Sequence record: PQ850596.1
Length of the DNA stretch: 43,870 nucleotides
Origin: Escherichia phage AnnaReinhart_Bas75
Reading direction: 5' to 3' (one strand)
Below are positions 24,862 to 27,072 of the stretch, one piece after another. The position numbers were made by a program, and so were the translations under genes. Positions within the stretch are counted from its first letter, which is position 1. Every line of letters starts with the position of its first letter. Below the pieces are notes generated by a model. The model searched no databases. It was not told where the DNA came from and saw nothing but the letters and a program-made list of their open reading frames with translations.

Positions 24862-26282
24862 TTCTTACCTCGTCTCTTCATGTAATTAAGCAATTCTTCC
24901 TGCACCGATTTCTTCTCGTCCGTACGCGCAGCGACAACCTCGTCCAGTGTGTTTTTAGCAACGATATGATAGAGGAACACCGGGCGCTCGTGGCCTGCCT
25001 GTTTCTGGCGGACCGGGCCTATTCGTTCGACAACCTGCAAATAGTGCTCAAGGTTCCAGCCTTGCGAGATGAATGCCAGATGGTGTCCGCCGTCCTGTAA
25101 ATTCAAACCATGACCGGCTGATGCGGGATGCACGCATAAGATTTCTATTTCACCCCGGTTCCACGCCTCCATCTGCTTATTACCCTTCGCGCCTTTGGCA
25201 AACGCCTGTGCTTGCGGGAATCGCTTAAGGATGCGCTCCAGTTCGTGCTTGAACTGATAGGCCACCAGTAACGGTGCCCCCTGTAACTCCTCAACAATGG
25301 ACTCGAGCGCATCAAGTTTCGTGTCGTGCACTTTCTCCCATTCTTTGGTTGCTTCGCCGTCTTCGCCCGTCACATACACGGCACCGGAAGCAATCTGCAA
25401 GCACTTAGCCGTTTTAGCGGCAGCGTTGGCAGCCTGCACCTCCCCACTCTCCAGTTCCGCGATTAACTTTTTCTCCATGTCGTCGTACGCCTGACGCGCT
25501 TTCTTCGGCAGGTCTATTTCGACCGGTACGATAATCGGCGCTTCACAACCAAACCACTCGGCAGGGTCTATGGTCAGGCTGATGTCTTTCATCTTCTGAT
25601 GAATCTCATTATCCGCACCCGGTCGTGCATGATACTCGCGGGCCATAGCCGATTTACCTTTCTGTACCGAGTTAAACCAGCGGTCGGTGAATGCTGTGTA
25701 CGAAGAGCCGAGGCGCTCGCCAGCGTCGATAAACCAGTTCTGACCCCACAAGTCTTTGAGGCCGTTTGGTGACGGTGTGCCTGTCAGGTTGATGAAACGC
25801 TTAACCTTTCCGAACGCAACCTTGCTGAGCGCCTTTGCCCGCTTGCTACCACCCGAACGGCTGCGGAACGATTTAAGCTTCGTGCTTTCATCGGCAACGA
25901 TAACCGTAAAAGGCCAGTCGTCTTTGCCGTAGTAGTCAATTAGCCACTCGATAACTTCGTAGTTAGTGCACACCACGTTAGCATCTGACTCCAGCGCTGC
26001 GATGCGGCGCTTCTCCGAACCAGTTGCATCTACGACACGCAGACAAGGGAATTGCCATTTCTCTTGTTCAGCGGGCCACGTACCGGACGCAACACGTAAC
26101 GGGGCAAGGATTAACACGCGGTCCTCTTCCGTAAGCTGCCCGTTGCGGAACAGGCGGTTGAGCACCCACATAGTGGAGGAGGTTTTACCTCCCCCCATTC
26201 CGCACCAGATATTACAGCGCGGGTGTTGCAGCATGAACGAAGTCATTAGCTTCTGGTACTCACGCCTTTGAAACTTACTCAT
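24858..26282 (-). CDS. SNF2-family DNA helicase
   Basis: 474 aa; Walker A GMGGGKTSS, DEST (DExx) box, C-terminal helicase region (HPASAGHGLNLQDGGHHLAF). Confidence 0.75.
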   Translation of the reverse strand: MSKFQRREYQKLMTSFMLQHPRCNIWCGMGGGKTSSTMWVLNRLFRNGQLTEEDRVLILAPLRVASGTWPAEQEKWQFPCLRVVDATGSEKRRIAALESDANVVCTNYEVIEWLIDYYGKDDWPFTVIVADESTKLKSFRSRSGGSKRAKALSKVAFGKVKRFINLTGTPSPNGLKDLWGQNWFIDAGERLGSSYTAFTDRWFNSVQKGKSAMAREYHARPGADNEIHQKMKDISLTIDPAEWFGCEAPIIVPVEIDLPKKARQAYDDMEKKLIAELESGEVQAANAAAKTAKCLQIASGAVYVTGEDGEATKEWEKVHDTKLDALESIVEELQGAPLLVAYQFKHELERILKRFPQAQAFAKGAKGNKQMEAWNRGEIEILCVHPASAGHGLNLQDGGHHLAFISQGWNLEHYLQVVERIGPVRQKQAGHERPVFLYHIVAKNTLDEVVAARTDEKKSVQEELLNYMKRRGKK

Positions 26283-27072
26283 TTACTGCCCCCATGAACG
26301 CCTTTATAAATTCAGCGGCTACTTGCGGGACGATGGCATTGCCATAACCGCGCAATCGTCCCACTCTTGCGGATACCCCATGAGTTGCCTCGCAAAATCC
26401 GCCTGGTATGACTCTAGTTTCCTTATCTGCTCCATGGTTGGGTTTCCATGAATCCCATAAACATGAAGCCACATCTGGCGATAAAGAGTATCGTTCCTGA
26501 ATTTTCCGTCCTTTCTGTAAAATGTCTTGCTGAGATCCCCGTAATCCTTCCATCCTCGCGCCGTTGGTGTCGCCCATCCTCGCGCCAAAGATGATTCTTT
26601 TCCTTTCCTGTGGAGAGCCGACGCTGCAAGCTGGCAATACTGACGCCCCGCAGGCGTAGCCTTTGTCTTCCAGGTTAAGGAATACAAAATCGAGCCAGTG
26701 CTTCCCAATTGCTGCTGCAACCTGCTCTCCAAACAGCAATTCAGGCTTGCACTCTCTGATGAGCCTGAGAAATGCTGGGGCAAGGTGTCGATCGTCGTCA
26801 AATCCGAGAGACTTACCGGCAACGCTAAACGGCTGGCAAGGTGGTGATCCTGTCCAGAGTCGAGTGCTTTCTGGTATTCCTGCCAGCTGGAGTGCAAGGG
26901 GCCACCCTCCGATTCCGGCAAAGAAGTGACACTGTGTAAATCCTTCCAGGTCTGAAGGGGTGACTTCGGTGATTGATCGTTCATCGACATATCCGTAAGG
27001 AATTAGTTTATTGTTAATTAATTCACGCAGCCACGCGGCTGCGCCTTTATCCCATTCGTTGTAATAGTTCAT
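26275..27072 (-). CDS. DNA (cytosine-5)-methyltransferase
   Basis: 265 aa; motif I FAGIGG and motif IV PPCQPFSVAGK (catalytic Pro-Cys), plus FGEQV (ENV-like). Confidence 0.75.
   Translation of the reverse strand: MNYYNEWDKGAAAWLRELINNKLIPYGYVDERSITEVTPSDLEGFTQCHFFAGIGGWPLALQLAGIPESTRLWTGSPPCQPFSVAGKSLGFDDDRHLAPAFLRLIRECKPELLFGEQVAAAIGKHWLDFVFLNLEDKGYACGASVLPACSVGSPQERKRIIFGARMGDTNGARMEGLRGSQQDILQKGRKIQERYSLSPDVASCLWDSWKPNHGADKETRVIPGGFCEATHGVSARVGRLRGYGNAIVPQVAAEFIKAFMGAVNE

What the first reader, a model, noticed from the sequence alone, without database searches (positions are those of the whole stretch)
26275..27072. Compact phage-encoded C5-cytosine methyltransferase
Motifs FAGIGG and PPCQPFSVAGK place this firmly in the m5C methyltransferase family, yet the protein is only 265 aa with a ~45-aa N-terminal extension before motif I. 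No partner restriction endonuclease is evident, so this is an orphan methylase, most plausibly protecting phage DNA from host restriction or marking DNA for packaging or replication.
Basis: partly seen in the sequence, partly recalled or inferred. Interest (0 to 1): 0.45.

Follow-up and report, generated by a model that had tools for sequence, protein, structure and literature searches.

The report
Two-subunit methylase from nested genes
The "compact" phage cytosine methylase is only the catalytic half of an enzyme whose DNA-recognition half is encoded by a second, unannotated gene lying entirely inside it in another reading frame, a layout kept in thousands of phages and prophages.

Summary
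The ORF is real: minus strand 26275-27072, 265 aa, with FAGIGG, PPCQPFS (Cys79), EQV, QERKR and GNAIVP. It is not a complete enzyme. It has no target-recognition domain and no motif IX.

Those parts are encoded by a second ORF, β (26319-26990, 223 aa), nested in the +1 frame. Frame A stays open from motif IV to X in 136 of 138 loci fetched using β. Frame B is open from upstream of motif IV in all 138. All 63 complete α genes fetched using α alone also carry an intact β. The third frame has 11-13 stops.

Substitutions switch frame along the gene. In the window's own TRD type, 23 of 30 changes fall on β's third codon position (β 86% identical, α 56%).

The "N-terminal extension" is motifs II-III placed ahead of motif I (+17 to +21 bits when rearranged, nothing in controls).

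This matches the published M.EcoHK31I architecture: α and β both required, with β nested in α. No restriction enzyme is present, so "orphan" holds. K1G annotates both ORFs; Bas71 and RefSeq E. coli prophages annotate only α.

Verdict: new member of a known, rarely recognised kind.

The parts
26275..27072 (-). α ORF (frame A), 265 aa: the catalytic subunit, with motifs II-III, I, IV, VI, VIII, a linker, then X. Its ATG overlaps the stop of the upstream 63-aa ORF (ATGA), and its last 8 nt overlap the start of the helicase gene.
26319..26990 (-). β ORF (frame B, +1 relative to α), 223 aa, nested entirely within α. Inferred to supply the target-recognition domain and motif IX.
   Evidence: (phrog_1008)
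26947..27066 (-). α aa 3-42 (YYNEWDKGAAAWLRELI...GYVDERSITEVTPSDL): the counterpart of motifs II-III, located ahead of motif I.
   Evidence: De-permutation test: +17 to +21 bits in PF00145 and TIGR00675, with no gain in reversed-segment controls. TIGR00675 aligns α residue 3 to profile position 25.
26905..26925 (-). α motif I, FFAGIGG (aa 50-56).
   Evidence: Aligned to M.HhaI residues 3-32.
26824..26844 (-). α motif IV, PPCQPFS (aa 77-83), with catalytic Cys79 at 26836-26838.
26719..26733 (-). α motif VI, FGEQV (aa 114-118). The same bases encode the conserved Leu-rich helix of β.
26596..26613 (-). α motif VIII, PQERKR (aa 154-159).
   Evidence: aligned to PQKRER of M.HhaI
26401..26577 (-). 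α linker (aa 166-224). It is kept free of stop codons but is not constrained as protein. It is the out-of-frame reading of β's TRD.
   Evidence: α 56% vs β 86% identical; differences 23/5/2 at A1/A2/A3; frame A open in 136 of 138 loci
26320..26349 (-). α motif X, GYGNAIVPQV (aa 242-251). GNA starts exactly 44 nt after the first residue of β's (W/Q)LMG motif in 140 of 142 loci.
26745..26990 (-). β N-terminal region (aa 1-82). It is open but not constrained as protein, is predicted to be disordered, and overlaps α motifs I-IV. An in-frame stop lies 4 codons upstream of the first ATG.
26616..26744 (-). β conserved block (aa 83-125: L..CLESRLQQQLGSTGSILYSLTWKTKATPAGR...ASA), predicted as a helix plus a β-hairpin. 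Its core, ILYSLTWKTKATP, shows low variability at all three codon positions and overlaps α between motifs VI and VIII. The flanks follow α's pattern.
26403..26579 (-). β target-recognition region (aa 138-196: GWATPTARGWKDYGDLSKTFYRKDGKFRNDTLYRQMWLH...). This is a minority TRD type with a single W.TP module.
26352..26402 (-). β motif IX-like block (aa 197-213: ADFARQLMGYPQEWDDC).

Best explanation
The locus encodes a two-subunit DNA cytosine-5 methyltransferase from two fully overlapping genes on the minus strand. α (26275-27072) is the catalytic subunit. It carries the cofactor-binding and catalytic motifs in the order II-III, I, IV, VI, VIII, then an unconstrained linker, then motif X. β (26319-26990, +1 frame) starts a few codons upstream of motif I. 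It has a dispensable-looking N-terminal tail, then a conserved helix and hairpin (inferred to be the α-binding element), then the variable W.TP target-recognition region and a motif IX-like block. Inferred steps: both polypeptides are translated independently from one mRNA and assemble into the active enzyme. β sets the sequence specificity. The enzyme methylates phage DNA during replication, most plausibly to escape host restriction. Shown here: both frames are kept open, protein-level constraint alternates between the frames, and the motif content of each frame is complementary. Not shown here: translation of β, assembly of α with β, activity, and the target site.
For: Layout. In 138 diverse loci fetched using β, motifs IV and X are in the frame one base back from the frame of the WLMG.P..W motif. 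Frame A is open from motif IV to X in 136 of 138, over 129-334 codons. Frame B is open from upstream of motif IV in 138 of 138. The third frame has a median of 11 stops and is never open. Among loci fetched using α only, 63 of 63 complete α genes have an intact β.

Null control. Only 9 of 189 ordinary ORFs in the same loci have a +1-frame open run of 200 codons or more, against 140 of 142 here.

Constraint. Codon-position entropy follows α's pattern from the N-terminus to motif VI, at motif VIII and at motif X. It follows β's pattern in the W.TP modules and motif IX. All three positions are low at β's GSTLYKLTWK.RATP, which lies 5' of α's motif VIII. For the window's own TRD type, window vs L167 shows 23/5/2 differences at β positions 3/1/2, with β 86% and α 56% identical. 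The pattern is reversed in the N-terminal and motif X regions.

Motifs. α matches M.HhaI only at motif I and motifs IV-VIII. Splicing β's TRD and motif IX block between α's motif VIII and X raises PF00145 from 78.0 to 88.7 bits (controls 79.8 and 77.7). For K-01 it extends the alignment to profile position 321 of 324.

Start. 134 of 135 loci have a frame-B ATG before motif VI, and the first one lies 10-24 codons upstream of motif I in 115 of 135.

Family size. The β profile finds 26,443 cluster representatives.

Precedent. M.EcoHK31I needs α and β. β is encoded entirely inside α in another frame, α has motifs I-VIII and X, β has motif IX, and the two work when expressed from separate plasmids (PMC2836561, PMC3404938).

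Orphan status. No restriction enzyme is annotated in Bas71 or in the E. coli prophage context.
Against: There is no direct evidence that β is translated in this phage. Its Shine-Dalgarno is weak (-3.3 kcal/mol, against -8.4 for the helicase gene), and its start codon is not at one fixed position across the family. β gets no Pfam hit and no PDB hit on its own. The motif IX assignment rests on pattern similarity and a gain of only 5-11 bits. The AlphaFold models of α and β alone were poor (pLDDT 41 and 55), so there is no structural support. Sequence homology to M.EcoHK31I could not be checked. The literature places the TRD of M.EcoHK31I in α, not in β. The anti-restriction role is inference only.
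Confidence: 0.85

Rival explanations
1. One reading: the 265-aa protein alone is a complete, unusually compact m5C methyltransferase, and the nested frame is irrelevant.
For: α has motifs I, IV, VI, VIII and X, passes the Pfam threshold, and is the only ORF annotated in Bas71 and in RefSeq E. coli prophages.
Against: α has no segment under protein-level constraint between motif VIII and motif X. Pfam covers only profile positions 59-165. The nested frame is kept open in 138 of 138 and 63 of 63 loci, and it is the constrained frame in exactly the region where a TRD and motif IX belong. M.EcoHK31I α alone is inactive (PMC2836561).
Confidence: 0.05
2. One polypeptide is made by two programmed ribosomal frameshifts: +1 after motif VIII into the TRD and motif IX frame, then -1 back into the motif X frame.
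For: The A-B-A alternation of constraint is what a doubly frameshifted single chain would also show. A -1 shift right after EWDD would join motif IX to LRGYGNAIVPQV in canonical order (sequence).
Against: A canonical slippery heptamer is present between WLMG and GNA in only 1 of 140 loci, and no conserved homopolymer exists. Frame A stays open through the whole variable TRD, and frame B stays open about 130 codons upstream of any possible shift site, neither of which this model needs. β's conserved GSTLYKLTWK block lies 5' of α's motif VIII, so one chain could not contain both. M.EcoHK31I works from two separately expressed genes.
Confidence: 0.05
3. The nested ORF is a non-functional by-product of sequence composition, or a relic of an old frameshifted gene.
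For: β's first ~82-95 residues are not constrained as protein. Long alternative-frame ORFs can arise by chance in some genes (9 of 189 controls).
Against: 140 of 142 loci against 9 of 189 controls have an open run of 200 codons or more. Substitutions concentrate on β's third codon position in the TRD and motif IX. The layout is conserved from E. coli phages to Ochrobactrum, Desulfovibrio, Spirochaetaceae and Acidobacteria. TRD cassettes are exchanged independently while both frames stay open.
Confidence: 0.03

Closest known systems
M.EcoHK31I (and, from memory, its isoschizomer M.EaeI), a heterodimeric m5C methyltransferase of E. coli HK31 (Lee, Kam and Shaw 1995, as cited in PMC2836561 and PMC3404938)
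   Same: [quoted passage not shown] Alternative internal Met codons can start β.
   Different: M.EcoHK31I belongs to a restriction-modification system (target YGGCCR), whereas this gene is an orphan in a lytic phage replication module. The literature places the predicted TRD in α, whereas here the constrained, variable recognition region is in β. For M.EcoHK31I, N-terminal deletions of β weaken association with α, whereas here β's first ~82-95 residues are not constrained. Sequence homology could not be tested because the sequence and the primary paper were not available.
M.AquI, a split m5C methyltransferase (Karreman and de Waard 1990, as cited in PMC3404938)
   Same: A natural two-polypeptide C5 methyltransferase split within the variable region.
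   Different: In M.AquI the large subunit has motifs I-VIII and the small one has IX-X, in consecutive genes. Here motif X stays on α and β is fully nested in another frame.
Escherichia phage K1G ORF31 (C-specific methylase) and ORF30 (Mte8-like protein), NC_027993 / GU196277
   Same: The same genus and the same locus. Both nested ORFs are annotated in K1G (274 and 230 aa), and RefSeq names both 'DNA methyltransferase'.
   Different: The window carries a divergent allele: the gene body is 63-73% identical against 93-98% in the flanks, with a different TRD type. I found no published functional interpretation of the K1G pair as α and β subunits.
M.HhaI and M.HaeIII, canonical monomeric m5C methyltransferases (PDB 10mh, 1dct)
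   Same: α aligns to M.HhaI residues 3-32 (motif I) and 75-169 (motifs IV-VIII), including PCQ, ENV/EQV and QxRxR.
   Different: The canonical enzymes are single chains with motif order I-II-III-IV...VIII-TRD-IX-X. Here the order is II-III-I-IV...VIII-linker-X on one chain, with TRD-IX on another.

Membership tests
DNA cytosine-5 methyltransferase (Pfam PF00145) | Motif I FxGxG (AdoMet loop) | tested here: met
   FFAGIGG at aa 50-56, aligned to FAGLGG of M.HhaI.
DNA cytosine-5 methyltransferase (Pfam PF00145) | Motif IV PCQ with the catalytic Cys | tested here: met
   PPCQPFS at aa 77-83 with Cys79; found in frame A in about 140 loci.
DNA cytosine-5 methyltransferase (Pfam PF00145) | Motifs VI (ENV) and VIII (QxRxR) | tested here: met
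   GEQV at aa 115-118 and QERKR at aa 155-159, aligned to ENV and QKRER of M.HhaI.
DNA cytosine-5 methyltransferase (Pfam PF00145) | Profile score above the curated threshold | tested here: met
   PF00145 scores 78 bits against a cutoff of 22, but covers only profile positions 59-165. TIGR00675 scores 63.2, below its cutoff of 100.65.
DNA cytosine-5 methyltransferase (Pfam PF00145) | TRD and motif IX on the same polypeptide, between motifs VIII and X | tested here: not met
   α aa 166-224 is unconstrained out-of-frame sequence. The TRD and motif IX-like block are in the +1 frame.
DNA cytosine-5 methyltransferase (Pfam PF00145) | Canonical motif order I-II-III-IV | tested here: not met
   The order is II-III-I-IV. 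Rearranging it in silico adds 17-21 bits in two profiles and two family members, while reversed controls add nothing.
DNA cytosine-5 methyltransferase (Pfam PF00145) | m5C-forming activity | not testable with these tools
   Requires bisulfite, EM-seq or nanopore sequencing of virion DNA.
M.EcoHK31I-type nested heterodimeric methyltransferase | α carries motifs I-VIII and X | tested here: met
M.EcoHK31I-type nested heterodimeric methyltransferase | β ORF lies entirely inside the α gene in another frame | tested here: met
   26319-26990 lies within 26275-27072, in the +1 frame. The layout is conserved in 138 of 138 and 63 of 63 loci.
M.EcoHK31I-type nested heterodimeric methyltransferase | β carries motif IX | tested here: inconclusive
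   The pattern L(N)P...(R/W)LMG(F/Y)P.EW resembles motif IX. The splice test adds 5-11 bits, and for K-01 the alignment reaches the profile end. β alone has no Pfam or PDB hit.
M.EcoHK31I-type nested heterodimeric methyltransferase | Both polypeptides are required for activity | not testable with these tools
   Shown for M.EcoHK31I only (PMC2836561).
M.EcoHK31I-type nested heterodimeric methyltransferase | Sequence homology to M.EcoHK31I α and β | not tested
   The sequence is not in any accessible collection, and the primary paper PMC306636 is not held.
M.EcoHK31I-type nested heterodimeric methyltransferase | Paired with a cognate restriction endonuclease | tested here: not met
   No restriction enzyme is annotated in Bas71 or in the E. 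coli prophage context. It is an orphan.
M.AquI-type split methyltransferase | Small subunit carries motifs IX and X and is encoded downstream of the large subunit | tested here: not met
   Motif X is in the α frame, 44 nt after β's motif, and β is fully nested.

The most novel reading that the evidence does not exclude
This nested α/β pair may represent one of the largest and longest same-strand overlapping gene pairs in bacterial viruses (over 26,000 β clusters, overlaps of 200-300 codons), and one that annotation pipelines routinely reduce to a single gene. Two of its features may be undescribed. First, the specificity domain lies in β, built from a variable number of W.TP modules and swapped as a cassette. 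If M.EcoHK31I is a member of this family, that would revise the published assignment of its TRD to α. Second, α has a permuted motif order, II-III-I-IV, which is not among the permutations of C5 methyltransferases that I know of.
Probability: 0.45. Interest if true: 0.72.

Novelty: new member of a known kind. Interest (0 to 1): 0.6.

Why it matters
It corrects the reading of a gene present in hundreds of sequenced Guernseyvirinae phages and many prophages. Annotating only the 265-aa ORF misses the subunit that most likely sets sequence specificity. Predictions of specificity, REBASE-style comparisons and expression constructs based on α alone would therefore fail. The locus is also a clean natural example of long dual coding: one stretch of DNA yields two proteins that must fit together, and the specificity cassette is exchanged while both frames stay open. 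That makes it useful for studying how overlapping genes evolve, for benchmarking gene callers, and for engineering split methyltransferases.

Tried and rejected
- AlphaFold2 of β (alignment A1) and α (alignment A2) gave mean pLDDT of 54.8 and 41.4. That is too poor for fold searches, so none were run.
- The β profile found nothing among PDB sequences, even at E ≤ 10.
- The α N-terminal segment, as a single sequence and as a profile, found no methyltransferase among PDB sequences. The permutation was then supported by the rearrangement test instead.
- I tested whether β's start codon is a fixed ATG inside α's VDERSI motif held by synonymous choice. It is present in only 69 of 135 loci, and GAT vs GAC there is 81:50. 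This idea is rejected in favour of a start zone 10-24 codons upstream of motif I.
- I looked for single-chain relatives with β's TRD in frame after motif VIII. Only L065 (K. michiganensis) and P0039 look like this, and both appear to be one-off frame swaps. The long hits in the exhaustive search have no catalytic motifs in frame.
- Literature searches for Kagunavirus or Guernseyvirinae DNA methylation, for Mte8, and for Bas71/Bas76 gave nothing usable.
- The primary M.EcoHK31I paper is not held, and the 2010 paper has no supplementary text held.
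Full report
**Observation**

The window is a Kagunavirus (K1G-like E. coli siphovirus), 98.6% identical over this region to phages Bas71 and Bas76. The reported ORF lies on the minus strand at 26275-27072 and encodes 265 aa. FFAGIGG is at aa 50-56 and PPCQPFSVAGK at aa 77-87. Pfam PF00145 is well above threshold (78 bits), but it covers only aa 67-169, which is profile positions 59-165 of 324.

**A second gene inside the first**

The same strand has a 223-aa ORF in the +1 frame at 26319-26990, entirely inside the first. It matches PHROG 1008 ("DNA methyltransferase"), whereas the reported ORF matches PHROG 363. In phage K1G both ORFs are annotated (ORF31, 274 aa; ORF30 "Mte8-like", 230 aa). 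In phage K-01 they are 314 and 270 aa. In relatives the second frame reads NWPTPTANDYKG ... LNPAHSRWLMGYPPEWDD. An Ochrobactrum prophage has the same nested layout, with ORFs of 360 and 298 aa. I call the frames A (α) and B (β).

**How general is the layout?**

Using a β alignment (A1), I fetched 80 loci from bacterial genomes and 80 from viral contigs. The bacterial loci include alpha-, beta-, gamma- and deltaproteobacteria, Spirochaetaceae, Acidobacteria, Planctomycetota and Thermaceae.

- In the 138 loci where all three motifs could be found, motif IV (PCQ.FS) and motif X (GNA.) lie in the frame one base back from the frame of WLMG.P..W.
- GNA begins exactly 44 nt after the W of that motif in nearly every locus (140 of 142).
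- Frame A is stop-free from motif IV to X in 136 of 138 loci, over 129-334 codons.
- Frame B is stop-free from upstream of motif IV in 138 of 138.
- The third frame has a median of 11 stops and is never open.
- As a null, only 9 of 189 other long ORFs in the same loci have a +1-frame open run of 200 codons or more, against 140 of 142 here.
- Because those loci were chosen through β, I repeated the check with loci fetched through α only. All 63 complete α genes contain an intact β ORF with the motif.
- An exhaustive profile search with β found 26,443 cluster representatives, 7,987 of them at E ≤ 1e-30, and almost all top hits begin at profile positions 1-7.

**Which frame is under protein-level selection, and where?**

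I measured nucleotide entropy by codon position on codon-threaded alignments of about 135 loci.

- From the N-terminus to motif VI, at motif VIII and at motif X, variability follows the normal coding pattern for α (α's third position most variable).
- In the W.TP modules and over NPAHSRWLMG.PPEW, it follows the normal coding pattern for β (β's third position most variable).
- Over β's GSTLYKLTWK.RATP, all three positions are uniformly low. That block overlaps the weakly conserved stretch of α between motifs VI and VIII.
- β's first ~95 residues in that alignment (aa 1-82 in the window) are not constrained as protein.

For the window's own minority TRD type I compared four members: the window, L167, a P2/186-like prophage (L165) and another kagunavirus (L168).

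- Over the 59-codon TRD, window vs L167 has 23, 5 and 2 differences at β positions 3, 1 and 2. β is 86% identical there and α only 56%.
- In the N-terminal region the counts are 8, 5 and 19, with α 89% and β 80% identical.
- In the motif X region they are 3, 0 and 8.

So aa 166-224 of the "265-aa protein" evolve as an out-of-frame reading of β.

**What each chain contains**

α aligns to M.HhaI only at residues 3-32 (motif I) and 75-169 (motifs IV-VIII).

TIGR00675 aligns α residue 3 to profile position 25. I then moved aa 2-42 in silico to between the motif I segment and motif IV:

| Construct | PF00145, window | PF00145, Ochrobactrum | TIGR00675, window | TIGR00675, Ochrobactrum |
|---|---|---|---|---|
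| Native | 78.0 | 47.0 | 63.2 | 36.2 |
| Rearranged | 98.8 | 68.3 | 80.6 | 54.2 |
| Rearranged, segment reversed (control) | 78.8 | 47.9 | 60.6 | 35.8 |

The rearranged constructs cover the profile continuously from position 4-5. The motif order is therefore II-III-I-IV. The segment alone does not reach solved structures, so this rests on the rearrangement test only.

For β, I spliced its TRD and motif IX block between α's motif VIII and motif X. PF00145 rose to 88.7 bits for the window (native 78.0, reversed control 79.8, linker removed 77.7). For K-01 it rose to 65.7 bits, with the alignment running to profile position 321 of 324 (controls 59.3-61.1). This support for "motif IX is in β" is modest but consistent. 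β alone has no Pfam or PDB match.

**Mechanism**

The best-supported model is two polypeptides translated from overlapping frames that assemble into one enzyme.

The published precedent is M.EcoHK31I. [quoted passage not shown] The two work when expressed from separate plasmids, and internal Met codons can start β (PMC2836561, PMC3404938).

The alternative of two programmed frameshifts is unlikely for four reasons:

- There is no conserved slippery site (1 of 140 loci) and no conserved homopolymer.
- Each frame is kept open far beyond what frameshifting would need.
- β's conserved block lies 5' of α's motif VIII, so one chain could not contain both.
- M.EcoHK31I works from two separately expressed genes.

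β's start is inferred. 134 of 135 loci have an ATG in frame B before motif VI, and the first one lies 10-24 codons upstream of motif I in 115 of 135. A frame-B stop usually lies just before it. In the window an in-frame stop lies 4 codons before the first ATG. The window's β Shine-Dalgarno is weak.

**Context and role**

The gene sits in the replication module, in the order DNA polymerase, VRR-NUC nuclease, 63-aa ORF, α/β, SNF2 helicase. Start and stop codons overlap on both sides of α. No restriction enzyme is annotated in Bas71 (82 features) or next to the E. coli prophage copies, where RefSeq annotates α only. "Orphan" therefore stands.

Compared with K1G, the flanks are 93-98% identical, the gene body 63-73%, and the TRD 27-47%. 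L168 joins a K1G-like catalytic part to a window-type TRD. This cassette exchange fits selection for changing specificity, as expected for an anti-restriction methylase. That role is an inference and was not tested.

**Comparison and novelty**

The locus works like M.EcoHK31I and meets the architectural criteria that could be tested. Sequence homology to M.EcoHK31I could not be tested.

Differences from the published description:

- It is an orphan carried by a phage.
- The constrained recognition region is in β, whereas the literature assigns the TRD to α.
- α's motif order is permuted.

It is not M.AquI-like, because motif X is on α and β is fully nested. Since the architecture has been known since 1995 and K1G already lists both ORFs, I rate this a new member of a known but rarely recognised kind. 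The size of the family, the location of the TRD in β and the motif permutation may be new, but I could not verify that from the literature available here.

Noticed in passing
window 26947-27066 (α aa 3-42): α's motif order appears permuted (II-III before I). The in-silico rearrangement adds 17-21 bits in two independent profiles. I know of no described C5 methyltransferase with this order. How the Rossmann sheet would be wired is unresolved, because the α model was poor.
   Followed up: partly
L065 2317-3530 (Klebsiella michiganensis DSM 25444): A natural frame swap just after motif VIII. One 393-aa ORF joins α motifs I-VIII to β's TRD and motif IX in frame, while motif X is left in a separate ORF. 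It could be an indel, a pseudogene, a sequencing error or an evolutionary intermediate.
   Followed up: partly
P0039 (289 aa, single metagenome contig): A protein joining α aa 1-103 directly to β's C-terminal part, skipping motifs VI-VIII. This is probably a frameshift error in the assembly.
   Followed up: no
P0241 (497 aa) and P0246 (758 aa): In some relatives the β frame reads through into a downstream domain. P0241 continues into an NPPY-type, adenine-methylase-like domain. If these fusions are real, they argue that the β frame is translated.
   Followed up: no
P0295 (547 aa): A β homologue with a ~200-aa Cys-rich (CxxC...CxxC) insert in the otherwise unconstrained N-terminal region. It may be an inserted HNH-like nuclease.
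   Followed up: no
P0267 and alignment A1: The number of W.TP modules in β ranges from one (the window) to about nine (P0267). The recognition region therefore looks like a variable array of short repeats.
   Followed up: partly
L165 3001-3636; L170 3893-4699: Gene callers disagree about this gene. In a P2/186-like prophage on metagenome contigs only β (211 aa) was called, while RefSeq calls only α (268 aa) for the corresponding gene in E. coli EC6868. Public databases therefore hold thousands of β proteins with no domain annotation.
   Followed up: yes
window 27069-27072 and 26275-26282: α's ATG overlaps the stop of the upstream 63-aa ORF (ATGA), and the helicase ATG lies 8 nt inside the end of α. 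This suggests translational coupling along the replication module.
   Followed up: partly
window 26161-26220 (5' end of the helicase gene): This 60-nt stretch is only 58% identical to K1G and 55% to L168, but 100% identical to K-01, amid flanks that are 80-100% identical. It marks another small mosaic patch, just downstream of the methylase gene.
   Followed up: no
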